Assembly: GCA_051294905.1 (NCBI GenBank)
Contig: CM119371.1
Coordinates: 38,008,001 to 38,072,000, forward strand
Direction of reading: 5' to 3'
Origin: Botryllus schlosseri
Lineage: Eukaryota
Length of the DNA stretch: 64,000 bases
The translations under genes and the position numbers were made by a program. Position 1 is the first letter of the stretch. Each line of letters opens with the position of its first letter. Below the pieces are notes generated by a model. The model saw only the letters and a list, made by a program, of their open reading frames with translations. It was not told where the DNA came from and ran no database searches. Below, piece by piece: positions 286-27,885 of the stretch.

Positions 286-561
286 CGGTGGAAATATTAC
301 TTATCTTACTACGAATCAAAATCGATTACATTTATGTCACGAAAATTCAGAGTGCATTTATGTCCTAGCCGCGCAAAGTGCGAAACATTTTTGAAGGTAA
401 AAAGAATTCAGTTGTTGATATCGTTACTTGCATATATTGCGGGTCGCCTCTGTATACCGCTCGGATAAGTTTGCAAGGGCTAGACCCGGGGTTATCAACC
501 TTTGTTTTGCCGTTGCCCTTTTTCCGGTTTGAAAATGATATGTGGCCCACCTCTTATCCTA
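286..561 (+). repeat. Third copy of the segment upstream of the lectin gene (=7951-8226)
   Basis: Near-identical to 7951-8226 and to the corresponding copy-B segment (~29359-29634). Confidence 0.9.
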
Positions 562-685
562 AACCGCGGGCCTTATAATATGGGGAATGGCGCCATACCA
601 TGCTATTTTCTAAAACGTGCTGTTCGAGAAAACAGAGGATTAGCATCGCATTTCCATATCAATACTATCATTTTCTTCCCATTAT

Positions 686-3062
686 GAATGTTCCCTCTAA
701 TTTTTGACGAGTCTGCGCAAACACCCCAACTCACTGCGCAGGCCCATAGACAACAGTGCGCAACCTGGCCCCCCATATGGTGATAAGCCTAATTTCTGGG
801 GGGCTTTGCCCCCCACACCCCTCTCGGGCCTTACGCTTTTTCCCGCTACTTATCATTTATATTAGGTGTCCGTTTAGTCGGTGTATAGCCTGGACGCGCG
901 AAGCGCGAAAAATTTATATAATTCATGATTGAATCAGTCAGTATGATCGGGAATTGCATATATATTGCTATCAATTTTTATCCTCTCTCTGCTCACGTAA
1001 CCAGATTTACCGGTAAAGCTGATCAAGTAAGGTGTGTTAGACAAGGTAGGACCCCCAAATAATAATCAAATATCTTCGGGCGTACCCGTTGGTAATGACT
1101 TCGGTACATGATGCTATTTCGTGTCCTATCTGCTGTGTCAAAAGATATTGAAATCGCCCAAACGAACTAAACTAAGACGTACACGATTTCAAATTGTTAT
1201 TTCTTTGAAAAAGTTGCATAAATGTCCAAAAAATTAATCCATGATTTATGTTTATTCACGAAATAATTTTGGTTCCCCTTCGAGCTCGGGCCGCCCAATT
1301 GGGGGTTTGGGGTGCCGCAGTTACGGTCCTGTGCGTAACACCAGACGTGCGTGTATCCATTCGAGTCACATGATTCATTGATAGAATCAAAATATAGCAT
1401 TTATATTTAGTTTTATTGCATTACACCAGATAATCACATTATGAGTGAAGATGGGGGAACTACGCTCTAAACATGTTGTCTCGACTTGAAGTTAAGCCAT
1501 TGAGGGCATTTTTTTCAGAAAGCCTTCGCGTTTGGACTTTTGCTGAAATATTTTCGGGATATGCACCATAGCACACGTGCGACTCTGTGGTGTCGTAAAG
1601 GGCTAAGAAGCATTCACCCGCAATGGCGATAAACCTCGACATCATGGATATCGCACGTGTTCTGTGGTGCATATTTTGACGGTGTTTTGGCTGCAGTTCG
1701 AGTGCGGTGGCTTTCTGAAGAAAATGAATGCTATTCTTTGCCACATTTTGCTTCTCTCAGAGCACACCTTTATCGCTCGAAAAAGAAAAATTCTCACTTA
1801 ATTTTACAGTTTTTTCTTCCGTTTTCACATGCCCCGACAACAGCTATGATAAACGAATCGCACTTTTTTGCTAATTTGGCTTGGTGAGGAGATGAGAAAC
1901 TACCCATTCGTTTTGCCATTATTAAAAGCTGTCAGTATAAACTGTGCAGAATTAGCGAATATTCACTCAACGTTGGCCACACAGGCAAGCAACTATAGCC
2001 AAAACACTTGTAGGGACACAAATGGACGCCTGTAACCGCAAGTACTATAAACGGCGAATCGGAATTTTGTGCGATCATCGGTGACGTCACAATAAATCCG
2101 TGTAAATGGTGATATAGGCTACTATAGATTACTAGTAGACATACACGCACGAGAACGCACTTCAAATCAATAAAGCGATCGATGTAGGCCTACCGCGTTA
2201 AAACACTGATGTGACGTCTTAATACCGGCAATACCGGCGCTCATTACTATCAAGACATAGAGTCAGATATAATGATACGAATATTCAAGTCTGACTGAAG
2301 CAAAAACAATATAAGCGTATGACCTTATCGACGGAAGATTCCCGTTCAAACGAATCGAATGAAGCCAAAATCTGTGCTGCTGAGAAGCTGATGTAATTCA
2401 ACGCCCTTCAGTGCACTGAACAGTTGTAGCATTTCCCGATCAACGTTTGCAAAGGGATAGATTTTTTAAACAATATTGGTGCTTACTTGCATATTCTGCA
2501 TATTATCATACCTCACCATACGTGATCAGATTCGCCTGATGAAAGTGATGACTTCGAAAATTCACGGCATGTAATCTCACGTAATGCTCATGCCACGCGG
2601 AAAAGACTATTCGTTAGTTTCTCGCAGATTAACTTCGAGCTAGCCCATTGTTATTTATAACTTTGTCAAACCATGTTATTTCGCCATTCCCAGAAAAGAT
2701 TGCGCTATTGAAATGATATCAGTATCGCTCACGCGTACGGGACCATACTAAAAGAAAAATCTCTTTCATGAGGCGCACGTGATTGCAAATTCTCGTTTCT
2801 TCACAGAGCGCAATAGCTACCTTTATGGGCAGCACTTGTACCTCGGTTTCAGACTTCAGCGATAGCAGTATTTGCCCCTGGCAGTGTTCCCTCTAATTTT
2901 TCACAAGTCTGCGCGCCTGCGCGGTCCCTTAGAGAACAGTGCGCAACGACTAAAAAAAAAGTCATCACTTCGGATTTTTTGTGCGCAGCCTAGATTTTCT
3001 GTGCGCAGAGACCGTTTCAGCACTGCGCATTTGCGCACGTGCGCAGCTTAGAAGGAACGTTG
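686..3062. mobile_element. hAT-type non-autonomous or composite insertion specific to copy A
   Basis: Ends (g)aatgttccctctaa / ttagaaggaacgttg. TSD cccattat/cccatgat. Empty site at ~26127-26134. A second left TIR cagtgttccctctaa lies at 2882. Confidence 0.75.
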
Positions 3063-4179
3063 CCCATGATGTGGACGAATACTTATGCTATCGAAAATTG
3101 GATACCTGCTGGTATGCATCAATATGAATCAAGCTCGTTACCTATCGCATAGCTCAATTTGCACCTTTTTACAATCCATGTGAACGAATTAGGATCGTTT
3201 TCATAACCACTTACTTACTTGAGTAATTTTAAAGTCAGTCAATTCTACTTCTACTTCAAGTAGTTTTAGGTTGCTTATGGAAGAAGTACTTCTAATCGTA
3301 CTTGAGTAGATTTTTTCGTCGCTACTTCTACTTCTACTTGAGTAGATTTCTTGACTACTTTGACCACCTCTTGGTGTATCACATCTGTATCACAGCTGTA
3401 TCATAGCTGTATCAGCGGTATAAGTTGCCACAGCTTTGCAGCGGTTGCCTTTGATCGAATGAAGCCAGATCGAATGAGATCTGCTTGCGGTTAGTAGGTT
3501 TGGAGGTTGTCTATTACCATATACTCCCGCAGTACTGGTACTTGAAAATGCTACCAGAAGCTGTTAAAAGTGAGGAAAATTAGTATATTATGACTGCGAA
3601 GCATTCGGTATCACCGAGCAGAGTTGTAAAAAGTGGGTTTCACATGACATTAACTCGGAGCTGAACAGTCCACACAATGCCTTCGACTCGGACTCGAGTC
3701 GAAACACTATGACTCGGACTCGACACGTCACTCCGTGACTTGGACTCGGACTTGACTCGGTGGTGAATTGAAAATGACTCGACTTGACTCGAGTCAATAC
3801 TATAAAAGTGAGACTGACTTGTGACTCGGAACCTTGTGATTTGGTTAAAACCCTGATTCCAATATCCTTTAACCATATAGCAGCCGGGGCCACGGAATAA
3901 GAACATGCACCAGAATAATTAATAACGACGACCCCGCCCGTAGATAATTAAATATACTTGTATTTGAGAGCTACAAAATTAAATCCGCAGAATATTTCTT
4001 CATCGATCATAAAGGATGATACTGATTAGTGTTGTTACCCCCCTTCATGTTAAAGTTAAGAGCTTGGTGCAGTACTAAATTCAATATGAGCAAATCTCTA
4101 CCACATTCTCAGTTGATTTAGTAATCACACGAAGCAATAAAACAAAACCCAATACAATTCACTTCCCCGTATTTCCAAT

Positions 4180-5807
4180 CAGAGTTGGATCAATTGTAAT
4201 TTGTAATTGAACTGAATGTAATTATTACATTTTTTCATGTAATTGTAATTGTAATTAAGGCATTTCTATTTTGTGTAATTGTAATTGTAATTGTAATTAG
4301 ATCAAAATTTTGCTCAATTACAATCTCAATTACATTTTCATGGAAACCTGACAATCACAACATAAAATAATCATTTAATCAATCATTTATTCGTCGCACC
4401 AGTGAAAATCCGGTACGAACCAGGATGACGACGAGGAGCCTTAAGGCCTTAGTAAACAGTCACCACATGTGATAATTAGCCTATTTACATCGGTGTTCTA
4501 TGCGTGCTGCGTTATAACTAGATAATTCAGTCACGCTAAACTGTTTCCCATACTTCAGTAGCAACAGAAAACTTTGTGAAATACATTATAGGCTAAACCA
4601 GTGGTTCGCAAACTGGGGGCGTGCCCCCTTGGGCGGCGTGAAAGCATTTGAACGGGGCGCGACGCTCCAGTGAACTGAAATCTTTTCCGCGTTTGACCCG
4701 ATTCACATCCGTTTTATGGTTGTTGCTCGGTGTATAGTCTGAATTTCGTGTTGCAGAATTCTCTCATCAACAGTCATAACCTTCCATACCATCAAACTAT
4801 ATGTAAGGATTGCTAACTTTTTGGTTTCATTGTATGCTATGACGATAAGGGGGGCACGAAATATTCACTGTCATATAGGGGGACGTGTCTAAAAAAGTTA
4901 GAGAACCAGTGGGCTAATCTAAATCTTAATATTTCAAAAATGGATGAACAGATAATAAACTTTTCTGAAACCTGTGCTGAACCATTTCCTACACCACGGT
5001 CAAAGTTTTTTTTAATCTCTGACCAGTACCGAGGCTTGTTGCAACAATAGCAAAAATAAATTCAAGTTTCCAACCAAGGCTTCATCAAACTTGATCACGC
5101 ATTTGTAGAGATGTTATCCGAATCTTAACCCCAACCTTGGCCAAATTTACTGGTGCCAGAAACTTTTCGCACTATAATGTTCATCAAATGCAATCTAACA
5201 GTTTCCGAGCAAGTGAAAATGTAAATGCAAACCAAAATATTGTAATTCTTAGTTATCAGGAGGTTCTTTCCTTTTGCATTTATTTTAATTTTACGCACCT
5301 TCTCGGTATCATCCTTATCGCTGACACATTTCATTATCCTCACTCAGCTCTGAGTTGCCTAATCGTTTGATTGCATTTCATTAACTGTCCTGTAGCCTAT
5401 TCGCTGTTAGTCGCTCAAACCTTTGGTTCTTAACAGTCGCTTGAAGCATTTTTCTGTGCTTGTAGTTTTCAGTACTCATGATAAGGAATACTTCGAATAC
5501 GTTCGAGTTTTTTTCAATTAAAGGGTATTCTACATATCAGGAATGAAACATGAATAGCTTGAGATTGTTGCTAATTACGTCGCTACGGTTGTCAAAGAAC
5601 ACCTCATTACTGAATCAATCACCTGTTTAAAAGTAATTGTAATTGTAATTATAATTGTGATTAATTTCATGTTAAACAGTAGTTGTAATTGTAATTGTAA
5701 TTTGATATTTTTAGCATTGAGTAATTGTAATTGTAATGTAATTGAAACATGCAAGGAAGTAATTGTAATTGTAATTGAATTAAAATATTGTAATTGATCC
5801 AACTCTG
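4180..5807. mobile_element. hAT-type MITE with (GTAATT)n subterminal arrays, copy A only; contains nested MITE 4599-4911
   Basis: TIR cagagttggatcaatt / aattgatccaactctg. TSD tttccaat/ttgccaat. Empty site at 27239-27246. The nested element has TSD ggctaaac/ggctaatc. Confidence 0.88.
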
Positions 5808-6455
5808 TTGCCAATCGCAGAGGAGAATTCGGGATGTGTACATCGATCTTGAACCAAATACTATATGAGCCCGTATGCCTTTCCCGGTGGATGTTATAAC
5901 AACCCGAAAATATCACATACAATTATACTGTTAATTAGTCGAGTGAACTGATAGTGGAGTGCCAACCTGAAAGCGGAGTTTTACCACTTATCCATTGTTT
6001 TTACTACAGTCCTTAAAATAGGGGGGCACCAGACTCAGGCAATTTTTGAAAGGGGGCGCTGGAGATGAAAAAAGGTTAAGAACCACTGCTCTGAAGCTTG
6101 TACACTATGAATGATGTCATGTTTCAAGCAAAAAAACAAAGCCTTGGCCTCACTTATCCCTACAGCATTTCCTTATCGAGCAATTATCTTTGCCGGCGTT
6201 GAAAACCACATAAAGCAGCAACTCGAATAAGACTTCGACTACGTAGAGAAAATGATACGACATTTCTGGGTCTTGTTTCATCTAAGCTACAAATACACGA
6301 AACAACACAAGAGATAAGATTTGCCGTTGGCCATTTGGCCGGGTCTCGTTTCAGCTACAAAAGACGTAATAGATGTCAACCAATATGAGTTAGGAGCTGC
6401 TATTATCCAAATCCGGTGGATCTGCGTCAATGTGCCACAGTTCCGCGGTTGAGTA

Positions 6456-7386
6456 TTAACAGAACTCGCACACGTATAATTTCGTCGGTGTTCCTGGTTC
6501 AGCCACGAATTGCAGAGTATCGTAGGAGCTGCCGACCGCGAACGCGACCGCGGCTGCGCCAATTCTGTTCAGAGTCGTGTCACTGTCTGTGACGTATTGC
6601 TCCCCAGAAGCTTCGAAGATCCAGAAAGGATTAGTGCCGCTGCCATCGTCAGTTAAGGCCAACCAAACATCCCCTGACAATCCCAGCATACCATCGAAAA
6701 TATTTCTGGGAATGAAAATCTATTTAAAAAACACAGACGGGTCTGAAAGTATTCTGTGGCGTCATGCAGAGCATGCTGCATTACTCACTGACGATCAACC
6801 GCGGTCCGAACGTTTTTATGAGCAAGTTCGCCACCTTTAGCCCGACAATCAACAAACGCGTCTGTATTACCAGCCAATTCATCTCCAACCTCATAGCGAC
6901 ATCCTTTGTATTCAAAGTCTTCCTGGAACATAATAGCGTCTTGTAAGATTTCGGATGTGATTTACGAGCGATGTTGAAATCGAATAGGATCGCGTCTACG
7001 AACCGGATCCGGCGATGCAGTTGTCTTGGTCGTAATTGTTGTGGTGGTTGACGTCGTTGACACGATCGTCTCCTTCGGCGTCTCTGGCGTCTCTGATAAA
7101 AGCAGGCCTGTGCGCGAAAAAAATTAGGAACACGTAACCGTCATTTGATTCGTCAATGACTTAATCTATTAGCCTTGCTCCAAACATCCGCGTGAGATCT
7201 GAATTGACACTCACCTCTGAAAAATTGCGTCCACAGATACGCTCGTAAAAGCGGTTCGATCTCGATCTGACGCCTACGAACAGGTGTGTAGGTGTAGTAA
7301 TAGCCTGGAGCGTATCTTGGAACCGCCCTGAACTGGAATAACGCAAGAAAAGGGCTCATTATAAATCAAACTTGGAGGTTAACTTG

Positions 7387-7428
<42 letters not shown>

Positions 7429-7584
7429 GACTCACCACATCGTGTCTGATAGTCGGTCCGTTTGAGGTGACTGCAATGCAACAAGTGTTCTGAAATAAGA
7501 CGTCATCGATCGCATTCATACGTCACACTCACCTTCAACAAATTCTACGGACAAAAGAAGAATAAAACTAGCAAAGAATCGCAT
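6456..7584 (-). CDS. Six-exon gene, ~230 aa: signal peptide, Thr-rich linker and divergent C-type lectin-like domain (copy A)
   Basis: Hand-built exons 7584-7533, 7470-7436, 7332-7215, 7107-7004, 6922-6789, 6705-6456. All introns are GT-AG (62-107 nt) and phases are consistent (693 nt). Protein: MRFFASFILLLSVEFVEVTS...VSTTSTTTTITTKTTASPDP-EDFEYKGCRY...DCRAKGGELA...VWLALTD...KLYVCEFC*. CTLD-like C-x3-GG-x-LA, WIGL-like and terminal YVCE motifs are present. The exon 2 acceptor is the least certain. Confidence 0.78.
7389..7426. repeat. (CA)n microsatellite in lectin intron 2; shorter in copy B at ~28819-28834
   Basis: Direct reading. The length difference accounts for the 22-bp offset shift between copies. 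Confidence 0.95.
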
Positions 7585-9315
7585 CTTGGCAGACCTACGG
7601 AGATAGATTTCAACCTGTAGGGGAATTGGAAAATGACGCGTTAATGGTGATTTCGGGTGGTGCTTACGACTGGAAGCCATACGCCGTCGAAGTATTCGCA
7701 ATGCAATAGCGATAAGCAATAAGGTTGATCAGTGATCAACCCTGATATGAAGACTTCCAATCCCTCATCATTTTTCATCTACTTAATAGATAAACACATC
7801 ATTTAACAGTCACGTGCTGTATCGTATATTGCAGGGGCGACCAACCTTTTCAGCCAACGGAATACATGCAATTTACCAACCATTACGTGGGTCACTTGAA
7901 TGTTGATTACTTTTTGTAGTTGTCCGCTAGGAGCGAGCCGGATTAGTTACCGGTGGAAATATTACTTATCTTACTACGAATCAAAATCGATTACATTTAT
8001 GTCACGAAAATTCAGAGTGCATTTATGTCCTAGCCGCGCAAAGTGCGAAACATTTTTGAAGGTAAAAAGAATTCAGTTGTTGATATCGTTACTTGCATAT
8101 ATTGCGGGTCGCCTCTGTATACCGCTCGGATAAGTTTGCAAGGGCTAGACCCGGGGTTATCAACCTTTGTTTTGCCGTTGCCCTTTTTCCGGTTTGAAAA
8201 TGATATGTGGCCCACCTCTTATCCTAGTGTTATAGTCCTGTTCAATATGTGGTAATCGCCGGCGCTGATATGCCTATTTCTCTCAAATATACGCATTTTT
8301 TTTTCTTACGAATCATATTTAAATGTAGACCCCAAGCTCATGAAATCGCGCTATGCGCGACGAAAACTCTGAAGTTGCATAAATCTTCTACATCGACCAA
8401 CGAAATGACTTTGGGACCTTCGAGGTCCCCCATTTGGTGGTTAGGGGTGCGGCAGTTACAACCCTGGTAGTTCGTATAACTCGAGTGTACATTATGGCCG
8501 TACACTATTCCACTCACGTCGCGAAACTCAATCATCAAATCCTCACTTTGAGATTGGGGTTACAGTTCCACTATGGGGGGGGGGGGGAATAACATAACCA
8601 TTTTAAGCCAGCTTCAAGCAATTCTTTGGTTGATGGGATACTGCAGCAAGGAGCTTAATACCATGTACAATTGTACATATAGCATATCTTGTTATAACTA
8701 AAGTTGTCAGAACATTTCATCCAATGATAGGCTACAATCACTTCATGGGACTCTCACAGTAGGTGCAATGATTTCAAGGCCGGACATTTTAAACCGACTA
8801 CAGAGAATAAGGTGCTGCGCTAAATCCTCAATCCATCGCGATTAGTGGCGTCGGTTCCGCATAGTTTCACAGGCAGTTGATAATAATTGATAATGAATGG
8901 CAATTGTGACTATTTTATGTTACAATAATACGACCGGCCAAAGTACCGTAAATCTGTATCAAATAAAATTCAGTCCGAGTTTAATGCACACCCTTTTCAA
9001 CAGCATACGACATATGACCTTGTCGGGATACTTGTTTACTTCAGCATTAGGGTCCAGTTGTTAAACAATCGAAATAATTTTAGTTGCTGTTAATCGTAGG
9101 TTGTCATAGCCCGGAGACAATAGTCGCCATTTACCCTCCCATTTTCGACTTGCACATTGTGGATCCATACGCGTCAGTAAGTCTCATCGAAGTTGGATGA
9201 AAAGCTTTACGTAGTTTACCTACAATTCGATAATATGAATATATTTTTGAGCCAATAACATAACAAATATAACTAAACTTTAGCCAATTCTACAATTTTC
9301 TAAATAGCCCTATGG

Positions 9316-9665
9316 TAGGGTTACCATACGTCCTCTTTTCAGAGGATTTGTCATCATTTTTTACTTTTTTGAAAGTGTCCTCGGAGGACGCCCTTTTGTC
9401 CTCTTTTTTTTGAGATTTTGTCCATTTTTTTGAGAATTTTGGTCATATTTATAGCAAAATGCGACTGAGATGCCGTAAATCAGCACCGAAGTGACGCTCC
9501 GGCGGGTATTTCGGGAGCTGAGTGGAAAGTTGACCTTTTTTTTAGTCAACCGTCCACAATATAGGAAAAATTTACAATTAATTTGAGAATTCTCCTCCTA
9601 TTTTGCAAGTCTGAAAATCCTGAAAAAGTGTCCTCTTCTCGGATTTCCAAAATATGGTAGCCCTA
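9316..9665. mobile_element. MITE with TAGGGTTACCA-type TIR; duplicated at ~53458-53807
   Basis: tagggttaccat / atggtagcccta, flanked by a cctatgg repeat. Confidence 0.7.
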
Positions 9666-12600
9666 CCTATGGTCCACCTCAAAATGCTCCTGTGGCCCAC
9701 TGTTTGAGAACCCCTAAGCTAGACTAATCGGCGACTTGACGTATCAATATCGAAGGTTTCGCCCATAATGCGTATATCATTTCATCGGCGACGATCTTTC
9801 TGCGAGGGCACAGGTGAAGTCGGATGCTGAACGACACGTTGTTTCATAATTGCTAATATAGTCTGATTCAATTCTGTACCTTAGTAATATTTTTTAATAT
9901 GATAATAATTTTCTTGAGGGGTACCGATAACAGAAGCAAGCCACCGAGTGACATTAAATTTCAAAAGTTCAAGTTAAATAAATGCGCCGCGAAATATTCA
10001 ACTTTATTGTAATATACGAAAATCTACAAACATGCGGTTGGTCCCTGACTACGCCAATCCGTCGGCGCTGATAGTTTAGTCGTCAAGATACCAAGTTTTG
10101 TGGTCAAGCCAATCAGATTTTTGACTGGCCTTACAAGTAATAAATTATCTGGGCATTTGATATAACTAATTTAGACAATTACCTCGCGGGGCACTCAAAA
10201 CCTTCTTACGGGTGACAGGTTGGTCATCCCCAATATATTGCATCGATTCCCAACCAGAAAGCGTTTGCTTTTTCTCTGGGGTTCGCCGAGACGACAATAA
10301 AATCATCATCATCATCATCATCATTTTAACAACATTGTTATTAAATCAAAACACCCGCCATCTCACTGATTCTGCATTTTTCGTTCATGAATTGAATGAA
10401 TTACGTATTTGTTACAGTTGTAACGGAATGGCAATTGTTGCGCACATAGTCGTTGATATGAGTTACCGCGACGCAAGTTTCCGAACCGCTGATGCATATA
10501 TTCAACTAAGCATTATTTCTCGGCTGTGACGTGGGCCTATTTCTCTCGCGCGGAATCGCGGAAGTGCTCGTTTGTGAGAAGTTTGCAGCGTTGCTAGTTA
10601 CTTGTGAGTAGCGAAATATCTGTACAACGTATGGTGTCGCCCTCGTGTAAAATGACGCTTGACGATTGATCTCGAAGCACCATGAATACCAAACGAACAA
10701 ATCATCACATCAACAATAACGGCCTGATGTGAGTCGGATTGTAGGCAGAGTATTGTATATCATCGATCATGGAGCGCTTATTAAACTCAGCTTAAACCGG
10801 AAGGATGTTCCTAATTCGAACCCGAACCAGATAAGTCTGACCAAACTGCACAATTATTACAACAAAAATCCAAGTAAACAATCCTGACTCTCAACAACAG
10901 AAACTCAAAGGGGAAATTCGGACGCCAAACGCTCTCTGCCAACTATCTTGAAATTGGAAGTCGATGACATTCGAAGTGAATATAAGCTCTACGTATTTTT
11001 GAGACGCTTTTTCGTGCCTTCCTTGCAATACACTATAATTTGAGACATTCTAGTCTAGCTAGTCTAGCTAGTCTGTTTTAACTGTTATCTCGGCAATCAG
11101 GAGACATCGTTGTGGCACATGCTCCCTGTATTTCTGATTTCTGATTTCTGACGGATAACAGTTAGTTTGGTGCAAAGAATGTTCAGATGCGCGCCAAACT
11201 CAACGTATACCCGAGTTTAGTCGCCTACCGGCTTCCAATGAAGATTCCCTAACGTTGAAATACCGGAATGTTCATGGCATAGATCTGTCGATCATTTGAA
11301 GAATTTTATGAACACCGCTTTAGTCTGTGGTAAAACATAGGCCTATACACACGCTCGGCTTGGCGTGACACATAATTTAACGTAACCTACAATGCGCTTA
11401 CAGAATCACCGCCGTTATAGCAGACTCCGCCGTTCTATGGTCGCTGGCACGCCCACGCTACAGTCAACGGCAGCTAATTTCAAACGCAATTAGCTAAATC
11501 CTAACGACTTTCCTGTGAGCTTATTTCATGCAGGCTCATTGACGTTTTTTGATATCAATATTGAGACATGGATATGCATCATTTTTGAGATTTTCCGAAT
11601 TATGGACCACCCTAATGTCCTCCTCTAGAAGGATTTGTCCTCCATTTTCAGATAATCGAAAATGTAATCCGAGGACGCCTGAACGTCCTCATTTTTTTGG
11701 AAAGTCGTCCTACTCTACAGCTTTGACACATTAGCTAATAATGGACAGGCTCAATTAAAAAACGCAATGAATGACGCGAAATATGTAATGCGGATGTTTG
11801 AGCGGGTCATTCGGGAGTTGAACTGAAAAAATGACTTTTTTTTAGTCAACAACACAGCAGTAAAGTTAAGAAGTGGGTAAATCGGGAGTCGAGACGGAAT
11901 GATGACCTTTTTTTCGGTAAAAGTATTAAAATCAGCCGTTTTTGTTTCCGGTAATATAACTTGTACGATTCTCCTTACTCGATTTCAAAATCTCGTAACT
12001 CTTGCATATTTCTATGCTCCTTTTGTTTAAGTCGTGTATAATCTGGCATTAGCCCGGCGTATGCGTTTTGAGGAATACAACCGTAAACACGGATGTTTGA
12101 ATTTGGTGCGTCATTATTTAATCGCGATTCGGATCTCTCTGGAGGCCGGAGGCCTTTTGAGCCAGACGATACAGCAGTGCGACCACCGATATTTTATTGA
12201 TCATTTGTGTAACTATTGTAGTCTCCATGAACTCCGCATATAACGATTTCGCATTGGCGTTTTCGATTCGGTTAATAACTACAGTTTGATTCATATTTCC
12301 ATAAAACTTAGTGTGCACTTTTTTGCCTTTTCAGCATTGTGTGTCAATGTCACCGACTCGTTCCTATTGGGGACTAGACTGAAACCACAACAGCGCAGTC
12401 AGAGGGTTATGATGCGGCCTATGAACATGCCAGACATTTGCTGTCTTAAGGGATTATTATCTAATGAAAGTAGGCTATTTTACCTACTTTTATATTATTT
12501 ACTCAGAATTACTTCGCGGGCCGGATGAAATGGTATGGCGGGTCGTAGGTTTGACAATCCTGCTCTAAAGAAAACGTTGCGCACTATATATCTTCTGAAT

Positions 12601-14936
12601 TGATGAGCGATCTCGACGATTATCTTGCAAATAATTTTACATTAAGTATGTTTAGCCACAGGCAACATAATGAACGGTCCTGGCTCGTAACGCACAAGTA
12701 AAGGTATTTATAGATTTCATAGATTTCATCGCCACGACAGAAGTATAGATTCTAGAACAGAGAATCGAGAACTGTTCATTCCATACACCAAGCCAAATAT
12801 ATTTTAATGCACAGGACGCATTGCGCGTTCCTTGCTGCTTACTGAAGTATTGGATCCCTTCTGATGGTGCAGCGTGGGTCGAAGTTATGACGTTGGTCAG
12901 CTTTCAAGCCGCTCACAACAAAGGACAACGATTTACTTTCTTTAGTCATCTTACTCGCTGAACTGATTTCTGCGAATAAACGCAACTTCAGATCTGCAGC
13001 GCTGTCGATTTTCTGTCGATGACAATGGTGTTTGTATGTGCACTCCAAATCACAGCGATATAGGCTACCCGTCTAGTAACCGGTCGCATGGTTTTTCTAC
13101 CACATGCCGTTTACCATTAATTGTGCGGGCCACTTGAGTATCAACAACCTTTTTTCTGTTAATGTTTATCTGCATACAGCGCAACTAAATCTGATGACTG
13201 AAGACAGCACAATCGCTTCACGCTTGAAGTGATCGCAAACCTGGCAAACAGGACGTAAGAAACGCTACCGTGAGACACGTGATAATCATTTACATTTTAA
13301 TTGGTTAATATCGCTGACGCCAATCTGTCCGGCCGACGATGGAATGAATAACAATCAGTCTTATGAATTCGAGAGCGATCAGTTTTTGTACATCAAAGAT
13401 GCCGCCTCACTGTAGTGTTAAGACGGGTGCGTTCACTTCTCTCCTGCGCTGTCTTCGCCTGGTTCGGCATTGAATATGCACCAGTGTTTCTCAAACTGGG
13501 GTCCGCGGTCCTTTTGGGGTCCGCGAGACAATTATTTAGGACCGCGAAGCACGTCCCAAAAAATTCAAACTGTCCAGATTTTTTTTTTGGGGGGGGGAGG
13601 ATCATAGAAAATTTCAGGTAACTTATTTTTAAACCAAATTCGGTGGTAGCTCGACATTGTATCGTTAATCAACATAAAGTAAAGTGTTTTGGTGAAGAAT
13701 TATTCAATTTAAAATTTGAGTCGCGCTTCGCGTGCTCTAGAGTCTAGTGTCACTGCATTTCTTGATTTTAATGAGCGTATCTACAGTTTTTTCACGGTTT
13801 GGTCTAGGTGGCCGCTAAGTAGCTTTAAGACACCGCAAACTTCATATAATGCCAGAAATGTTCTCCCACCTAAGAGAAGCTTCGGTTAAGTTACGCCAAA
13901 AGCAATTGTTAAAACTAAACGTCAGGTTGAGTAAATACGTTTATGACATCATAAGCTTCATAATATCCAGTTGAAGTCAGAGAAGAGTCCAGAAGGAATA
14001 GAATTACCTCGAAACTAGGTTTCGCAAGAAAAGCTATTATTATGTTATTTCTGTAGTATTATCACCGAGCTTTTAGTTGTAAGACTGACTATACTTAGAC
14101 AGGCACCTTTACAAGCCGAACTCGAAGTGTATTCCTTCAGCAGAACACATGCATGTCTGTTATCAAAACAATACAGGAACCCATCGCTGGGCTCAATCAA
14201 GCATATCATAACACCACAATTTCTGATTTCAAAGGTTACTTTAGGACAGGGGCGGGCAACATACAGCCCGCGGGCCGGATCCGGCCCGCGAAGGGATTTT
14301 GACCTGCCCGCCAAGAGTTTTTACTCTGAAAGTGAAATTTTATTCTGAAAGTATTGACAAATTTTATGCGTCACATAATGAATCCAAGTTTGCCAACCTG
14401 AGAAAGATGGACATTAAACTACTTGCTCTGTTCGGGTCTACAAACATTTTCGACCATAAACCAGTATTGGGATGACTCGAGTCACCTGGGGAAAATGACT
14501 TGACTTGACTTGACTCGACGCTTCAGAAATGCAGACTGACTCGTGACTCGAAGCAAAATTTACGAGTCAATTTCAAGTCATCAAGTAATCGACGTCGACT
14601 AAATCGCTGTATCTTGAATAAGTTCGGATTGCCAACCAATGAATCAATGATTGTACGTCTTACCGAATCTCCATTGTTATATCACAAATAAATTGATCGC
14701 AAACGCAGTGATCGGTGCTTATACAACAGCTTACGTTATCGTAAACTTGCTTACCTCAACCAACCCTCTTGTACATAATTTAAATCAAACGAATATCGCT
14801 CATACGTTTATAATTGTATATCATGGATATGAAGGTGGGTAGGGTATCGAACTATATCATTTTTAAACTTTCTGAGGTTTCGTATGTTATCCTGTATTTT
14901 GGCTGTTATTTATAGACTGAGGCTATACCTCTATAC

Positions 14937-16440
14937 CAGTGGTTCCCAAACGGTGGGGAATTCCCCACTGGTGGGGAATTCAATGGTTTCCGGTGGGGAA
15001 TAGACGTATTTGTTCAAAATTATATACAGGACAGTCTACATATTCACGGAGACAAATGCGCAATTACCGTTACCAGTTACTGCTCTGGAATGTATATATC
15101 GAAAATTATATTGCGTAATGTTCACAAAACCTCATTTTTAACTCTGGATGACCAATGATGGCGTCACAACACAATCGCATCTAGCACGACTAGTTTGACG
15201 CGCAATAACGCTATCGCGAAATTTTGAGCGTTACTGGTTACTGGTATCGGTTCATATACGTTTTATGTTGCAGTTATAGGCGATTGTCTTGCGACTGGTG
15301 TGGTTGTGTGTCTTGTGTAGTCAAACCAGCAAATAGCTGCTCTGTGATGACAAAAGTGTTGGGTAAAGTGGGGAACAGGACCGTAACTGCCGCACCCAAA
15401 CCCCCCAATTGGGGGGGGTGAGCTCAAAGGGGCCCAAAATTATTTCGTGAATAAACATAAATTATAGAGTATTTTTTTTGAAATTTATGCCACTTTTTCA
15501 AAAAATTTTCGCGCTAGGTGCGCGATTTAATATTGCCGAATATCTTGATTATTGGGTACCCTTTCCCCACGAAAATACGTAGAATTTATAGAAATGGAGA
15601 CTTCGGCGTCGGCCATCACTGAGCCCCGACGCACCAAGACATATGAAGTTATAGGCCATGTAACATGCGGCTCCGAGAAGTGTGCCAGAACGATCAGCAG
15701 CGAGAAGACCTTGCCCGAGAAGGAATGCGCTTGTGTTGACCGAAAACTTCGATATATATACAATATACTTATATGTTTAATTGTCCATAGGCGGCTAAAT
15801 GGTCTGCGCCGAATGTTCCTGTCCTGGCGATCTGAACCCCACAGGACAAATGCCATCACGCAGGGAAAAATTATTTGCCAAAGCAATACCGATTTGAAAT
15901 CGTGTGTGCTTTTTAGTTTTGACGATTTCCATATCTTTTGACAAAGCAGATATAGGAGGTCATGAAATAGCATAATGCATCGAAGTCAATATATACCAAC
16001 GGGTCCGCCCGAAGATGTTTAATTATTATTTAGGGGTCCTACCTTTCCAACACACCTCACTCAGCTCTACCGGTAAATCTGATTACGTGAGAATAGAGAG
16101 GGGATAAAAATTTGACAGCAAAATATATGCAATTCCCGATCATATTGACCGATTCAAACGTAAATTATATAAATTTTTCGCTCTTCGCGCGTTCAGTCGA
16201 AATAAGGCGACGCACAAAACAGTAGACCCAATGTAGATGATAAGTAGCGGGGGAAAAGTGTACAGGCTCAGGGAGCTGAGGGGGAAGCCCCCCAGAAGTT
16301 GGGTTTATCACCCTGTGGGGGCCCAAGACCAACGTTTTTTGGAGGGGGGCTGACGAAGTGCTGTTACGGTCCTGGTGGGGAACGAAGACTCGGAATAAAT
16401 CTGAAGTGGGGAATGAAGACAAAAAGGTTGGGAACCACTG
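14937..16440. mobile_element. hAT MITE (nest layer 3)
   Basis: TIR cagtggttcccaa / ttgggaaccactg. TSD CTCTATAC. Confidence 0.9.
15376..16374. mobile_element. hAT MITE (nest layer 4)
   Basis: TIR caggaccgtaac / gttacggtcctg. TSD GTGGGGAA. Relatives end at ~1331 and ~8466. Confidence 0.9.
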
Positions 16441-19400
16441 CTCTATACTGTCGTAGTTGAGCAGTTCTACGTACGCGTGAGCGATACAGCGCCTTTTGTG
16501 CGCATAATCAAATCTTTATTCGTTCCTCGATTCAGAATAAATGGGTACTCCATCTGTATTTAAAACAGTTAGCAAAATGTAATGACTTTGAATCGTGTCT
16601 AGTACTTTGAAATTTCAACTTTACTGGAATCGTGACTTGACTTGACACGACTTAACTCGAGTCACCTTTAAATATCGAGTGACTTGACTTGACTCACTCG
16701 AGTCAAAATGTGCAATGACTCGAGATGACTTATGAATCGAAGGTAGTTACATTACCGAGGAAGGCTGCGTTCCAATATAACTGATGTTCGTATGCAGTCT
16801 TTACTAAGGGTTTCCGCATACGACATGCAACCAGAGTTCAAAAAACTAGTTGACAATATTGAACGACCACAGACATCTGATTGACTTCAATAGCTGTTGT
16901 AAATAAATTCATTGGATACTGTTTTTGGTCTCTATGCTTTAAACTTAAAGTTTACATTAAATACAATTGATTCCTTGTATAGGTGGATAAATACGCGATT
17001 AAGGCATAATGCATATAATCTGTAATCCGGCCCGCCAAGTGCTTCATTTTCCCATATCTGGCCCGCCGATCGGAGAAGTTGCCCGCCCCTGCTTTAGGAC
17101 AAACATGAATCTCTCAAGATGCGGTATAAACCTAGGCAATTTAAACTACATACAATCAACGCAACATAAAATGAATTATTCGACAAAACACAGCTTAAAT
17201 GATTGTAACAGCGACCAAACAGCCTGCCCAACACCGCCGCCAAACAAGTTTGCTGCGCATTCAAGCAAAGTGTGATTGTTGACACTTCTGCTCGTTGTGT
17301 TTCCACACGTAAAAACTGATCATCATGCGCCATAAATCAGAAATATACATTGACGAGTATCGAAGGTGCACTTCTTTCGTAAATAACTCTTTGATTCAGC
17401 TGTTAGCCGTACCTCCACTTATTCTATGTTCGTATTATCGACAAGACATAGCGAGAAACAATCATTACTTTCCTATATACTGTTGGTGCAAGTGGCGCTA
17501 GGCAAAATCGAGTACCTGAGTGATTCTGAATCACGTAATGTGCTTCGAGTCGAGTCGAGTAATCGAGTATCTCTCATTATGACGTCATAACGGAATGTGA
17601 TATGTGAAAGTTCAAATATGTACCTTTTACGCGACGACAAAGAATAGAATGCATTTTATCCATCACATTAAAGATACTTTGGTATTTTTTCGACAATACC
17701 GATTTCATTGCACTTGGTGACGATGTTGTGGGATGATCATGACTTCGAAAATGTGCTCATTCCAGTAAAGTTCGTAGCTTTGTACTATATGTTTCGTATG
17801 CTACGATACGGTCAATCAAGGTTTCAAGACTTCACCAGTGAACATTAGTATCGAAACTAAAATTCTCGTTGATAAATTAACTTTCAGTGGCGAGGAGCGT
17901 TTAATTTCAGTACTCAAAAAATCTTCTTTTACTACTCGATTCAGATTTGAATACTCGAATCATTGTGCCCATAGCCCTGGTTGCAAGTCTAAATTTTGGG
18001 AAACCGCTGGAGAAATTTCGGGGACCGTTTCGGTCCCCAAAACACCTTACAGAAAATAAGTCTACCGATATTCTCAATTGTGAGAGCATCGCTTGAGGCC
18101 GTTGAAATACTTTGGTCCAGCGGTGCACAATTGCGGGTGCGTCGATCATCGGTATCGGCGCTGACCCTTTCCGCGCCAGAATACACCTAGACATGTGAAG
18201 TGCGCGGCCAATAGGATCATGCTATCATGGTATGTCGCCTAGACCAAAATTTTATTGTAGTTCAAATTGCTCAAGGACACTGCTTCTAACGCATATATCC
18301 TATGCCGACCTCTACAAATATGAGCTATGAAATGCAAATGAGGGAAAAGAACCCAACTCCACACCTTTGAAGATTATTTGCACCGATTTGTTTCTCCATC
18401 CAGAACAATTGGTATGATATATTAAAGTTTGGTTTGAGCTCGAAATTGGGGTCTACAATGTACTGTAGCTAACTCCTCAATAATTCCACACGCGGTAATC
18501 TCCCATAATGGATTGGCCGCGAATTTCCAATTGGAATATACCCTGAAATCGAATCACTAGATTATGTCCACTATAGCTCAGCCAAGCTTTGAAAACTGGA
18601 AATATTCACGGCTCAGTAAATTTGTTAGATAAATATCGAGAAATTCGACTCAATAACAATGTAGAGAATATGTACGCCAAAGAGGCGACATCGTTTCTCG
18701 CAACTACAACGTCCTGCCGAATCGCTGTTTTGATAACATTCAAGGCTGTTTAGAAGCAGATCGAGTAAAATCATGCAACACAGTTTCCTTAAAACGCCAT
18801 CGCAACTCGATGCGCAGTGAATAAGCGTTCACCCTGCTCCTATAAGTCGCCACGCCATGATGTCGAGTCGACAATATGTACATGCGATAATATGTATAAT
18901 AATATATATTTTACATATGTATATCATTGCGTACACGATAGCTCCTACGTAGCGATAGCGCCTACGTAGAATGGTGGTGGTATCAAGTGGGCGGCACCGC
19001 CAATCTGAATGGAAACTTGAAAAATAAAAAAGGGATTATTAGGTTGGGTGCTTCCGCCACACTGCTGCGCTGCTCGATGTGGGGTAGGTTCCTCCTACAC
19101 CTGTGCTGCTCGGAGATGAAAATTGGCCGAATATTATGAAAAGAAGGATCGACTTCAGAATGCGAAATCTCAAAAAAACTCAGTGTTGTTTTCTATGCTG
19201 ACTTGCTTGAAATTGTCTCACCGTGACAGCCATATTCTTTGCCCCGGCTGGGCTCATAATAACCTTCACTATTCGTATGCTTCTCACAACAACAAATCGT
19301 ACGATAAACTTTATTTATTTATCTTCATTCATCTTACTCGGCGAAATTAGGGTAATTTCCAAGTCGCCCCCGTTCTGTAAGGCAACATGATGGCTTATGT

Positions 19401-22000: not shown

Positions 22001-24818
22001 ATTTTCCATATCAGGCACGCTTGCTGGAGAAGTTGCCGCCCCTGCTTTAGAGTAAACATTAGAGGTGAAGAGACTCGGTACTTATTAGCCTAGAAAATGT
22101 ACATTGATCCTATCGTGCTTTAGATGGAAACGCACTCGCACTTTTTCTCCGGCGCATTTTGATCAAAATAAATAGCTGGCGTTTAGCAATGATAAGGAGA
22201 GATATGGCATTCTTTTTCACCTGGGCCATCAAGATGCTTTGACGACGGAGATGCGATACGGCCTTTTTATAGTAAGGCCATCTAGTCTGCACACCCGCTT
22301 TTTCTCCTCCATGCTATCCGTGATTGCTGAGCGCCTAGCAGGATGGCCGCGGATACCAGTCGTAGAGTTTTTGGTCTGACCCGACCGGGGATCGACGAGC
22401 ATGTCCACATTCAAGTCGAAATACAAGCAGTTTCTACTAAATTAATAGGCCTACTATAAGTCCGCCCTCGAGATTACCGGACCACGACCTGACCTATCGA
22501 TCCCGCCTTCCGTGACATGCTACTCCATTTTTTGTCGCTTGCTTATCTATACTATCTTCTTTTACTTTTCATTCAGTGTGTATGCCTCCTCTTAACATCG
22601 CCTACGCCCGCCAAAGTGGGTGTTTGATTCCAAAGAATACTCCAAGTCGTTTTGATACCTTCCTAACTTTTCATTGTATCGCAATTTTTGTGGTGTATCG
22701 AACTGATGAAAATTGCTGATAAACCGAACCGAATTAAGATACCCTGTCGAATTTGCAATACATGTCCGGTATGGTTGCTACCGTTCACCTTTAGTGTGTA
22801 CTCCTAAACTTGCTCTCTACGTCTACACCAAGCTTGGCTCGTTTCGCACTGCACATTTCTGCTATTGCATTTTCAGGAATACTGGAAATTATAGTAGAAT
22901 TTAAATTTACAGCATAGGAGCAATTCACAAATTAGATTAGAGTCCTATTACTGGCATTTCGCCCTAATTACTCTAATACCTGGAATTATCTAGTCTGTCC
23001 ACAATGTCATTCGTGCACTGCAAGGGTACAGTAGGACACTGTGTCAGTAAACTGAACTGTCCATCTAAAATCCTTGTCGAACGAAACACTCCTTCGACTT
23101 CCTGCAAACAATCACGTGCATTCATGATAATCACAATCCACTGTTCTATGATCGCCACCCTTTCAAGACATACGATGTGTGCGATGCGACACACGAGACA
23201 CGATGCGACGCAATGGCACGTTAATTCAGTGCGAAATTTATCGACCGCTGACAGCCTTGGCGATTTAGCGGCACGCGAGATCAAACACTGTTACATCGGA
23301 CGACAATAGATTATAATACCAATATCGGCTAAATTTGATGTTTGATTTTCATGTATGTGGAATCTAATAAAACAACCTTGAAAGCAAAAAAGAAAACCGC
23401 TGATTATGATGAGCTGATAGCTATCATTGTCGTATCCAGGAGGGACCGCATTTTTCGAAATTTTTCGTAAATTAATATACGATGGAGTATTTCTGAGCAG
23501 ATGTAGTCAACTTGAAATTGTTCGTCGCGCTTCGCGCAATATATCAGTTCAGTGTTTTTTTTAATTGTTGAATACTCGCCTCTCGATGATTCAAAATAAA
23601 AAATAGGCCTAAATTGCAATACGCATGATGTACAGAATTGAATCTACCTGTATTCGTGTGTGCTGCCCGCGGTTACGCGACTATATGGGCTCCAGCTTTT
23701 AGGCGTCAAAAAGACACACCAAAGAAAATAGGTCTTAGTCAACATGAAGTGCGATCGCAGGAATATCGCGGGCGATAGAACCTTGGCCGAAGATCACGCG
23801 AGATGGCCCTGTCCTTGCAATCTGAGTCCCGCGGTACATAGGCAATAAGTATTGTGCCCAGTGAATAAATGCAAATTGGGAATCGTTCGTATCTCATCAA
23901 AGATCTCTTTTAATTGGTTTTACTACGTGTGAGCGATCTTCTGAGTGACGACAACTTTTTCCGGAGGTCATGAAGTAGGAACATGCTTCAACTAACTAAG
24001 TGATTACAAATGGTCCGCCTGACGCTCACCCTCCAGAAACTCATGAATATTCTTACCATGACGTTAAAACATATAGCTCAATATGAATAATTACGAGCCT
24101 TCTAAATATTTGAAGACGCGGCTTCTATCAGCTTTGCCGCTAAATCTTATAATGATAACGTATACCGCCGTAACAGAGTCGCACCCCAAGCCCCCAATGG
24201 GGGGTGCGAGTTCGAATGGAAGTTCAAAATTTTGTCGCGAATAAACAAAAATTTATCGAGTGTGTTTTGGTAGAATCAATGAACTTGAAATTTTTCTTCA
24301 CGCGATTTATGATCGCACTACATCGCACTAAATTAATGAAGTTCAATATATAGAAAGAGGCAATTTTGCGCCTTCGTTGTATACATGTCCAATCGTCAGT
24401 TGTTCATGTACGTTCCTAAATGCTCGGCACCGAATAGTCATGTCTTAGCACTCTGGGAAAATGCCGCATACGTGATCAAATGTCAAAATGGAATCGCGTG
24501 TGTCTCACGAAAGAAGTTCTTCTTTTTGTTTAGTCTGGTATATTTGTTCTATTCCAATCAGGGTTGTAATGACTCGAGTCATGACTCGACTCGAATCAAA
24601 CTCGAGTCGCGATTTTTCGGTGACTCGACTTGACTCGAGTCATTTTCTTAAAAATGAAAAATGACTCGATTCGACTCGAGTCGTTTCGTGTATTGACTCG
24701 ACTTGTACTCGAGTCATAAGTCATATGATTCGAGACTGGGTCTACCAAGACAGCCGTTTCATTGTAATTTCGAAGAATAGTAAAGGTATCGCACTGTTAT
24801 GATTTCTTCTATCAGTAC

Positions 24819-26595: not shown

Positions 26596-27885
26596 GTACT
26601 GGTACTTGAAAATGCTACCAGAAACTGTTAAAAATGAGGAAAATTAGTATATTATGAATGTGAAGCATTCGGTATCAACGAGCAGAGTTGTAAAAAGTGG
26701 GTTTCACATGACATTAACTCGGAGCTGAACAGTCAGCACAATGACTTGGACTCGGACTCGAGTCAAAACACTATGGCTCGGACTCGACACGTCACTCCGT
26801 GACTTGGACTCGGACTTGACTCGGTGGTGAATTGAAAATGACTCGACTTGACTCGAGTCAATACTACAAAAGTGAGACTGACTTGTGACTCGGAACCTTG
26901 TGATTTGGTTAAAACCCTGATTCCAATATCCTTTAACCATATAGCAGCCGGGGGCCACGGAATAAAAACATGCACCAGAATAATTAATAACGACGACCCC
27001 GCCCAGTAGATAATTAAATATACTTGTATTTGAGAGCTACAAAATTAAATCCTCAGAATATTTCTTCATCGTATCATAAAGGATGACACTGATTAGTGTT
27101 GTTACCCCTATTCATGTTAAAGTTAAGAGCTTCGTGCAGTACTAAATTTAATATGAGCAAATCTCTACCACATTCTCAGTTGATTTAGTAGTCATACGAA
27201 GCAATAAAACAAAACCCAATACAATTAACTTCCCCGTATTGCCAATCGCAGAGGAGAATTCGGGATGTGTACATCGATCTCGAACCAAATACTATATGAG
27301 CCCGTAGGCCTTTCCCGGTGGATGTTATAACAACCCGAAAATATCACATACAATTATACCGTTAATTAGTCGAGTGGACTAATAGTGAAGTGCCAACCTG
27401 AAAGCGGAGTTTTACCACTTATCCATTGTTTTTGCTACAGTCCTTAAAATAGGGGGGTGCCAGACTCAGGCTATTTTTAAAGGGGGCGCTGGAGATGAAA
27501 AAAGGTTAAGAACCACTGCTCTGAAGCTTGTACACTATGAATGATGTCATGTTTCAAGCAAAAAAACAAAGCCTTGGCCTCCCTTATCCCAACAGCATTT
27601 CCTTATCGAGCAATTATCTTTGCCGGCGTTGAAAACCACATAAAGCAGCAACTCGAATAAGACTTCGACTACGTAGAGAAAAGGAGACGACATTTCTGGG
27701 TCTTGTTTCATCGAAGCTACAAATACACGAAACAACACAAGAGATAAGATTTGCCGTTGGCCATTTGGCCGGGTCTCGTTTCAGCTACAAAAGACGTAAT
27801 AGATGTCAACCAATATGAGTTAGGAGCTGCTATTATCCAAATCCGGTGGATCTGCGTCAATGTGCCACAGTTCCGCGGTTGAGGA

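What the first reader, a model, noticed from the sequence alone, without database searches (positions are those of the whole stretch)
9161..9180. Pre-insertion (empty) site of the Maverick-like element lies in the same window
Copy A reads ggatccaTACGCGtcagtaag. Copy B reads ggatccaTACGCG-[22,726 bp]-TACGCGtcagtaag. The flanks of A and B are nearly identical here, so the whole element integrated as one unit very recently by an integrase-type reaction, although it encodes no integrase. This implies an active helper in trans.
Basis: partly seen in the sequence, partly recalled or inferred. Interest (0 to 1): 0.7.

Follow-up and report, generated by a model that had tools for sequence, protein, structure and literature searches.

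The report
Empty and filled Maverick-satellite insertion site
The same stretch of sea-squirt-like DNA appears twice, once without and once with a large mirror-image jumping element, which shows that this enzyme-less passenger of a virus-like Maverick transposon was pasted in cleanly and recently, although about a third of its present length was probably added afterwards.

Summary
Copy A has one TACGCG (9168-9173). Copy B has it twice around a 22,726-bp insert (30584-53309) with (AGT)2//(ACT)2 ends, the Maverick/Polinton signature. The insert has two 6.3-kb inverted arms, each with an intronless, RING-less three-BIR IAP of ascidian type, and no integrase, polymerase or capsid gene. Integration by an enzyme supplied in trans is the best reading.

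Three corrections. (1) "One unit" is doubtful: a 6.2-kb LTR-type insert and a truncated hAT each sit in one arm only, so the unit that moved was probably 14.5-15.5 kb. (2) A and B look allelic. Their divergence steps from 3% to 0.3%, and one DNA run fits two versions, not three. They may be two haplotypes assembled in tandem, which would make the element heterozygous; a real tandem duplication remains open. (3) A helper was active when it inserted; a helper active today is not shown, and none could be searched for.

A neighbouring hAT site in A carries an excision footprint, whereas the Maverick site is clean. This scan already reported this palindromic family many times on other DNA of the same genome; the paired empty site is confirmatory.

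The parts
9168..9173 (+). Empty target site TACGCG in copy A, single copy, no footprint
551..18809 (+). Copy A of the duplicated region; may extend to about 20.6 kb; two A-only inserts near 687-3062 and 4180-5807
   Evidence: extension inferred from variants at 19395 and 20595
24551..64000 (+). Copy B; homology to A is visible from 26000, but a MITE with an intact 8-bp duplication (24559-26919) ties the sequence from 24551 to B; runs off the window
30578..30583 (+). Left target-site duplication TACGCG
30584..53309 (.). Maverick-ended palindromic element, 22,726 bp as it stands; 14,502 bp without its three nested inserts
30584..35296 (.). Left arm, outer part; 2 of 4,713 bases differ from the right arm
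34102..35289 (-). Left IAP copy, 395 aa, three BIR, no RING, no intron; identical protein to the right copy; the LTR-type insert lies a few bases upstream of its first ATG
35297..41489 (+). Non-coding LTR-type insert: 579-bp TG..CA repeats (1 difference), 4-bp duplication GTAC, absent from the right arm
41494..43082 (.). Left arm, middle part (about 370 bp identical to the right arm), 89 bp missing from the right arm, and inner part (5 of 1,128 differ)
43083..45953 (.). Unique centre, 2,871 bp; holds 70-77% copies of arm segments and a 966-bp MITE (44689-45654) with an 8-bp duplication
45954..47081 (.). Right arm, inner part
47082..48223 (-). Truncated hAT-type insert, right arm only: one terminal repeat and a C-terminal dimerisation-domain fragment (47275-47652); replaces 89 bp of arm
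   Evidence: atlas lead; Pfam gave no hit
48224..53309 (.). Right arm, middle and outer part, uninterrupted
48604..49791 (+). Right IAP copy with its upstream region intact
53310..53315 (+). Right target-site duplication TACGCG
57889..58924 (.). B-only hAT-type MITE with 8-bp duplication; internal control, since its site in A (near 13735-13750) carries a 7-base excision-type footprint

Best explanation
A shows the locus before insertion. On the lineage of B, a helper-dependent, palindromic derivative of a Maverick/Polinton (about 14.5-15.5 kb, two 6.3-kb arms, each with a captured ascidian IAP) was joined to the chromosome by a retroviral-type DDE integrase. The integrase recognised the (AGT)2//(ACT)2 ends and made a 6-base staggered cut, whose repair duplicated TACGCG. 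The integrase, and the protein-primed polymerase that copied the element, came from an autonomous Maverick, endogenous or infecting. The arms were made equal at or shortly before that replication, most likely because the polymerase switched template or snapped back and copied one end twice. An LTR-type element then inserted in the left arm and a hAT element in the right arm, giving 22.7 kb. SHOWN: empty and filled sites, the 6-bp duplication, the end motif, the absence of recognisable core genes, one-arm inserts, arms sharing rare letters, a high-copy family. INFERRED: the enzyme's identity and source, the order of the nested inserts, the snap-back mechanism.
For: Clean site and duplication. 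The end motif and 6-bp duplication are those of vertebrate Mavericks (PMC8097293, passages). The only long frame in the insert is the IAP; Pfam found BIR there and nothing above a curated cut-off in the other element frames, in 74 further frames of 45 aa or more or in 63 of 40 aa or more. The IAP's best relatives are Styela, Phallusia and Ciona proteins, 38-47% identical. At all 12 arm positions listed, both arms of this copy carry the same letter, while 77-100% of the counted depth in run X1 carries another. Only 2 of 4,713 outer-arm bases differ, so the arms were equalised after this lineage's own mutations; the LTR and hAT inserts break that symmetry. Summed contig depth over the arm is 11,769-27,238 in X1 against 39-49 in the two lowest flank bins (not a copy number). 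The neighbouring hAT site in A shows that excision leaves scars here (footprint type as in PMC5873905, passages).
Against: No helper was seen: no genome is held for this window, and terminus and IAP scans of viral and metagenome contigs gave nothing relevant. The reported helper of about 60 gene-carrying Mavericks rests on unchecked notes. Two nested inserts against only 7 arm substitutions is a high ratio, and Polintons carrying TE cargo are reported to stay mobile (bioRxiv 10.1101/2025.02.07.637071, passages), so the inserts could predate this integration. The LTR divergence (1 of 579; 95% interval 0.004-0.96%) cannot be told from the flank divergence (0.36%). One search warns that some differences were not counted, and at 32803 the window's letter had no counted depth at all in X1. 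The polarity of A as ancestral was not tested with other individuals.
Confidence: 0.6

Rival explanations
1. One reading: the full 22.7 kb, nested inserts included, was copied from a parent elsewhere and integrated here as one unit.
For: End-to-end copying by a protein-primed polymerase would carry one-arm inserts along (model recalled from Kapitonov and Jurka 2006; paper not held). Cargo-bearing Polintons without polB appear mobile in insects. The size lies within the vertebrate range of 12.7-24.6 kb.
Against: The arms share rare letters but not the inserts. The stripped size of 14,502 bp matches the 13-16 kb of family members in earlier notes (unchecked). The hAT insert is truncated and took 89 bp of arm with it, which needs further events.
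Confidence: 0.2
2. Separate question, option 1: A and B are the two haplotypes of one locus, assembled head to tail; the element is a heterozygous insertion polymorphism.
For: Divergence is a mosaic: 32 substitutions in A 5808-6870 (1,063 bp), then 3 up to the site, 19 in the next 4.6 kb and 16 in the 5.1 kb after. One duplication event would give uniform divergence. In run X1, pieces found once in the window have depth 11.4-15.5 and pieces shared by A and B have 28.3 and 35.1. Bin 27973-28639 is 3.1-3.5 one-copy units, against 2.83 simulated for two versions and 4.7-5.9 for three. Uncollapsed haplotypes are a known long-read problem (PMC8178825, abstract).
Against: The window has no N gap. 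It is not shown that X1 is the source individual (72% of words held). One shared piece (29769-30199, across a G run) has depth 18, nearer one copy than two. The depth estimate rests on 5 of the 8 X1 pieces printed. The tool warns that summed depth is no copy number.
Confidence: 0.5
3. Separate question, option 2: A and B are a real tandem duplication, probably from unequal crossing-over between two alleles, homozygous or facing a deletion on the other chromosome.
For: The sequence is gapless. Unequal crossing-over between alleles gives the same divergence mosaic. The two-version depth also fits a homozygous or hemizygous duplication.
Against: It needs the second haplotype to be identical or absent over at least 20 kb; three versions are not seen.
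Confidence: 0.45
4. The ends were used by a different DDE enzyme (a Ginger-like or foldback-type transposase) rather than a Maverick integrase.
For: No helper was seen here. Polinton and Ginger integrases are related (PMC2836005, start of abstract). Long-armed foldback elements exist (PMC3573991, start of abstract).
Against: The 6-bp duplication together with (AGT)2//(ACT)2 is the Maverick signature. IAP genes occur in adintoviruses (PMC8502044, passage).
Confidence: 0.08
5. An autonomous Maverick integrated itself in cis and was later rebuilt in place into a palindrome, losing its core genes; no helper was needed.
For: Most vertebrate Mavericks are degraded in place (96%). The centre holds old 70-77% copies of arm sequence.
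Against: No core-gene remnant was found. The time available is short (flanks 0.3-0.4% apart). The arms are nearly identical. Earlier notes report many same-sized palindromes (unchecked).
Confidence: 0.06
6. A is a revertant: the arms folded back and replication slipped between the two 6-mers, excising the element precisely.
For: Precise loss of long inverted repeats between short direct repeats is known from Tn10 and Tn5 (recalled; one search found no paper). A is the derived state at the neighbouring hAT site.
Against: The repeats are only 6 bp and the insert is 22.7 kb. New insertions are expected to be common in a high-copy young family.
Confidence: 0.04
7. The junctions are assembly chimeras.
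For: The region is very repeat-rich, and no junction-spanning contig was printed.
Against: A mis-join has no reason to create a 6-bp duplication in register with both inverted ends and with the empty copy.
Confidence: 0.02

Closest known systems
Autonomous Mavericks/Polintons of vertebrate type (PMC8097293, passages; anole element in PMC3014272, passages)
   Same: 6-bp target duplication, (AGT)2//(ACT)2 ends, terminal inverted repeats, overall size within 12.7-24.6 kb.
   Different: None of the eight core genes was found. Arms are about 6,300 bp against 46-1,447 bp, about 87% of the stripped element. The only recognisable gene is an IAP, present twice.
polB-less, TE-carrying Polintons of insects found as structural variants (bioRxiv 10.1101/2025.02.07.637071, passages)
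   Same: Presence/absence polymorphism, nested LTR or LINE cargo, missing replication gene, genes duplicated inside long (about 2 kb) inverted repeats.
   Different: Those keep other canonical Polinton genes, and their cargo is argued to move with them. Here no core gene is left, and the inserts are in one arm only.
Adintovirus accessory IAP genes (PMC8502044, one passage; supplementary figures not seen)
   Same: An anti-apoptotic IAP homologue on a Maverick-type element.
   Different: Here the IAP is closest to ascidian host BIR-RING proteins, lacks the RING, and rides on a gene-less satellite.
Subgenomic molecules made by polymerase template switching in phage phi29 (PMC4974454, passage citing Murthy et al. 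1998)
   Same: Protein-primed replication yields helper-dependent molecules from one genome end; that they are palindromic is recalled, not read.
   Different: Those are transient phage DNAs and are not integrated. The parallel is a mechanism analogue, not membership.
Foldback-type transposons such as Galileo (PMC3573991, start of abstract)
   Same: Very long terminal inverted repeats and structural dynamism.
   Different: P-element-type transposase; different target duplication length (recalled); no Maverick end motif.

Membership tests
Maverick/Polinton (autonomous) | Perfect 6-bp target-site duplication | tested here: met
   TACGCG at 30578-30583 and 53310-53315, single at 9168-9173; criterion
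Maverick/Polinton (autonomous) | (AGT)2//(ACT)2 or (AG)3//(CT)3 end motif | tested here: met
Maverick/Polinton (autonomous) | Terminal inverted repeats | tested here: met
   About 6.3 kb, far above the vertebrate range
Maverick/Polinton (autonomous) | Core genes: integrase, protein-primed polymerase B, ATPase, protease, major and minor capsid | tested here: not met
   Longest frame is the IAP; no core family by Pfam in frames of 40-45 aa or more. Badly decayed remnants could be missed.
Non-autonomous Maverick derivative | Keeps the cis ends, lacks the enzymes | tested here: met
Non-autonomous Maverick derivative | Many dispersed copies | tested here: inconclusive
   Arm depth is hundreds of times the flank depth in X1 and X6, but that is not a copy count and no other insertion site was seen
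Non-autonomous Maverick derivative | Termini shared with an autonomous element of the same genome | not testable with these tools
   No genome held; claimed only in earlier notes
Pre-insertion (empty) site | One copy of the target, no footprint, flanks collinear with the filled copy | tested here: met
   contrast with the 7-base footprint at the hAT site in A
Pre-insertion (empty) site | Empty state is ancestral (outgroup haplotypes empty) | tested here: inconclusive
   Runs of other samples were laid, but no row at the junction was printed
Uncollapsed haplotype (false duplication) | Half depth on each copy and only two versions in the source reads | tested here: inconclusive
   Two versions fit better than three; a homozygous or hemizygous real duplication gives the same ratio

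The most novel reading that the evidence does not exclude
An ascidian carries a still-spreading class of snap-back satellites of an endogenous polintovirus: about 14.5-kb palindromes born when the helper's polymerase copies one end twice, integrated by the helper's integrase, and amplifying a captured host IAP. This site is a segregating, heterozygous insertion whose nested inserts record the order arms equalised, integrated, then invaded. It would be a directly genotypable case of Maverick mobilisation in trans in a chordate.
Probability: 0.3. Interest if true: 0.7.

Novelty: new variant of a known kind. Interest (0 to 1): 0.35.

Why it matters
An empty/filled pair is standard evidence for any transposon, so the observation alone is ordinary. 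Its value is that it removes two doubts about the palindromic Maverick-ended family that this scan keeps finding: such elements enter the genome cleanly, with a Maverick footprint and without their own enzymes, and they did so within the span of present-day allelic variation. If A and B are haplotypes, the site is a ready marker for counting new insertions in families. It also warns that this assembly may contain false duplications. The one-arm inserts offer a way to test whether the arms are equalised during replication or afterwards in the chromosome.

Tried and rejected
Whole-genome search for the helper and for other copies: not possible, no genome held. IAP against viral contigs: 4 pattern matches, 0 confirmed. 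Terminus pattern in viral contigs: 0. In metagenome contigs: 1 match, L001, a 27% GC bacterial contig where the 21-mer lies inside a short gene, with no BLAST hit to the window at E 1e-5; rejected as chance. No RNA holder was listed, which is no evidence either way. A third haplotype suggested by X1 piece 29769-30199 (12 gap letters) was set aside because it crosses a G run; its depth of 18 stays unexplained. From the depth estimate I dropped 3 of the 8 printed X1 pieces: one with 16 differences in a repeat, one in a segment present three times, and the G-run piece. Horizontal transfer: runs labelled as organisms B-E and a marine metagenome hold 20-27% of the words. Only X7 was laid; its arm-to-host-repeat depth ratio resembles that of X6, so a related species, a mixed sample or a mislabel explains it equally well, and no claim is made. 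Self-priming of the LTR insert: the best complement is 7 bases, rejected. The 264-aa frame in the LTR insert: no Pfam or atlas hit. Two weak Pfam hits (E 0.03 and 0.04, below cut-off) were ignored. Dating in years: not attempted, no mutation rate in hand; arm identity dates the last equalisation, not the insertion. Look-ups of earlier notes near the site, by words, by sequence and among relatives were blank. Literature: searches listed no paper on palindromic or IAP-carrying Maverick derivatives in ascidians. These were mostly listings, and the library lacks subscription journals and Repbase, so an earlier description is possible. Supplements were not read; those of PMC8502044 and of the Pannagram preprint may bear on the novelty.

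Full report
Observation. Copy A has one TACGCG at 9168-9173. Copy B has it at 30578-30583 and 53310-53315, around 22,726 bp that start AGTAGT and end ACTACT. Taking out the insert and one 6-mer gives A exactly over the 40 bases compared, and 0 of 574 bases on the left and 0 of 166 on the right differ. The window has no N and is 42% GC.

What the insert is. Self-comparison shows a near-palindrome. The outer arms (30584-35296 and 53309-48597) differ at 2 of 4,713 bases, about 370 middle bases are identical, and the inner arms differ at 5 of 1,128. Each arm is about 6.3 kb and the centre 2,871 bp. The only long frame is an intronless 395-aa protein with three BIR domains (Pfam E 1e-46), identical in both arms. 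Its best relatives among 14 hits are Styela, Phallusia and Ciona IAPs at 38-47%. It stops before the RING that most of these carry, and no RING remnant lies nearby. The host is therefore most likely an ascidian (inference). Pfam found no integrase, polymerase, ATPase, protease or capsid family in the other element frames, in 74 frames from the centre and right arm, or in 63 from the LTR insert and middle arm. The left outer arm was covered through its mirror image. A 6-bp duplication with (AGT)2//(ACT)2 ends is how vertebrate Mavericks are recognised; their inverted repeats are 46-1,447 bp (PMC8097293, passages). The element works like a non-autonomous Maverick but is not an autonomous member.

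Did 22.7 kb move as one unit? Probably not. The left arm holds a 6,193-bp LTR-type insert with a GTAC duplication, and the right arm is uninterrupted there. The right arm holds a 1,142-bp truncated hAT piece in place of 89 bp. Its frame scores 0.98 against hAT dimerisation-domain clusters in the atlas, where that Pfam family is on 17-42% of members; Pfam itself gave no hit. A 966-bp MITE with an 8-bp duplication sits in the centre. Without the two one-arm inserts the element is 15,476 bp, and without the MITE 14,502 bp. One search printed 40 of about 1,080 variant rows, 12 of them in the arm. At all 12, both arms of this copy have the same letter, while 77-100% of counted depth in X1 has another; X6 agrees at 11 of 12. 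So the arms were equalised after this lineage gained its own changes, and inserts in one arm came later. If equalisation happens when the element replicates, the inserts postdate integration. That last step is inference. Against it, insect Polintons with TE cargo and no polB seem to stay mobile (bioRxiv 10.1101/2025.02.07.637071, passages), and the LTR clock (1 of 579) cannot order the events.

What A and B are. They align in five blocks, A 551-18809 to B 26000-64000, with four TE-sized indels including this element. Divergence is about 7% and 4% in the first two blocks, 32 substitutions in the first 1,063 bases of the third, then 38 in the next 11.9 kb or so. A step like this suits alleles with different histories better than a single duplication event (inference). 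A MITE with an intact duplication ties 24551-26919 to B, and variants at 19395 and 20595 in X1 suggest that A runs on to about 20.6 kb, so the join lies between. In run X1, three pieces found once in the window have depth 14.5, 15.5 and 11.4, and two pieces shared by A and B have 28.3 and 35.1. A repeat-free bin has 3.1-3.5 one-copy units, where a simulation gives 2.83 for two versions and 4.7-5.9 for three. Two versions in a diploid is what two haplotypes would give. A real duplication that is homozygous or faces a deletion gives the same, the sequence has no gap, one shared piece has depth 18, and X1 is not shown to be the source. I put allelic false duplication at about 0.5 and a real tandem duplication at about 0.45. 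Either way A is a valid empty site.

Is A ancestral? A nearby site gives a control. B holds a hAT-type MITE at 57889-58924 with an 8-bp duplication, and A has 7 extra bases there rather than a clean site. That is the pattern of deletions and complemented bases described for Ac/Ds and TcBuster excision (PMC5873905 and PMC3499496, passages). An empty-looking site in A can therefore be derived, but the Maverick site has no such scar. Precise loss by slippage between the 6-mers remains a small possibility (recalled from bacterial transposons; one search found no paper).

How recent, and what helper? The right flanks differ by 0.36% (95% interval 0.25-0.51%), about a tenth of the 3.0% seen further left; this bounds the age from above. 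No rate was available for years. The family is abundant: summed arm depth is 11,769-27,238 in X1 and 7,087-37,308 in X6, against 39-49 and 6-25 in the two lowest flank bins (not a copy number). No helper could be sought, as no genome is held, and contig scans were blank or chance. Earlier notes on other DNA of this genome describe several hundred 13-16 kb palindromes, some with IAP genes, and about 60 gene-carrying Mavericks. I could check only their agreement in size, ends and arm symmetry with this copy; the words 'satellite' and 'snap-back' come from them. The evidence shows that an integrase acted in trans at the time of insertion, not that one is active now.

Mechanism. Most likely a protein-primed polymerase starting at one end of a Maverick switched template and copied that end twice, as template switching yields one-end subgenomic molecules in phi29 (PMC4974454, passage; their palindromic form is recalled). 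The product keeps both origins and both integrase sites and is carried by the helper. The IAP may sit there because adintoviruses carry IAP homologues (PMC8502044, passage). No function is shown, and one bulk RNA library gave depth 0-1.5 over it. A recent survey of animal IAPs attributes dispersed intronless copies to retrotransposition and has no occurrence of 'Maverick' (PMC13159474, passages). Other passages read: PMC6431247, bioRxiv 10.1101/2024.01.15.575659, PMC3014272 (which reports an apparent absence of non-autonomous Polintons in the anole); abstract of PMC8178825.

Verdict. Observation confirmed; interpretation partly supported. The element is a new variant of a known kind, already flagged repeatedly by this scan. 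Searches listed no description of it, within a library that lacks subscription journals and Repbase. The empty site adds clean confirmation of integration in trans and a possible heterozygous marker. Interest 0.35.

Noticed in passing
window 13723-13761 against 57881-58932: B holds a 1,036-bp hAT-type MITE with an 8-bp duplication. A has 7 more bases than a clean empty site, with complemented bases at the joint: an Ac/Ds-type excision footprint. Here A is the derived state, and hAT excision happened recently.
   Followed up: yes
window 24559-26919: An old MITE with the 8-bp duplication ATTCCAAT spans the apparent start of copy B and holds 1.8 kb of nested sequence; a joint skipping that 1.8 kb is seen in all four runs. 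A lacks the left half within the window.
   Followed up: partly
window 35293-35296 and 48597-48606: The LTR-type insert landed 3 bases upstream of the first ATG of the left IAP, separating it from its upstream region; the right arm keeps the empty site.
   Followed up: partly
window 33976-35292: Bulk RNA run X23 (1,934 million letters read) gave depth 0-1.5 over the IAP despite the high DNA depth; one library only.
   Followed up: partly
window 41955-43082 against 47081-45954: The inner arms differ about ten times more than the outer arms (0.44% against 0.04%).
   Followed up: partly
window 286-561, 7951-8226, 29359-29634: A 276-bp repeat piece; the first two copies are identical, and the first marks the left end of visible A/B homology.
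   Followed up: no
window 43950-44620, 43258-43357, 43125-43151: The element's centre carries 70-77% copies of arm segments, and a short motif recurs three times; possibly old promoter-like units or an earlier round of duplication.
   Followed up: no
window 35876-35895: The sequence behind the first LTR begins TGA rather than the usual TGG of a tRNA primer site (convention recalled), and it is not self-complementary to the LTR.
   Followed up: partly
window 21126-22010 (-): A reverse-transcriptase fragment of a LINE (Pfam RVT_1, E 5e-6, below cut-off), in the stretch where A must join B.
   Followed up: no
window 48604-49791: The first BIR of the IAP is a few residues shorter than in Styela relatives, and the third lacks one residue; the aligned Cys and His positions are kept.
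   Followed up: partly
run X7 on window 34763-35260: A run labelled as another organism holds IAP contigs with 0 of 180 and 4 of 308 differences, at low depth.
   Followed up: partly
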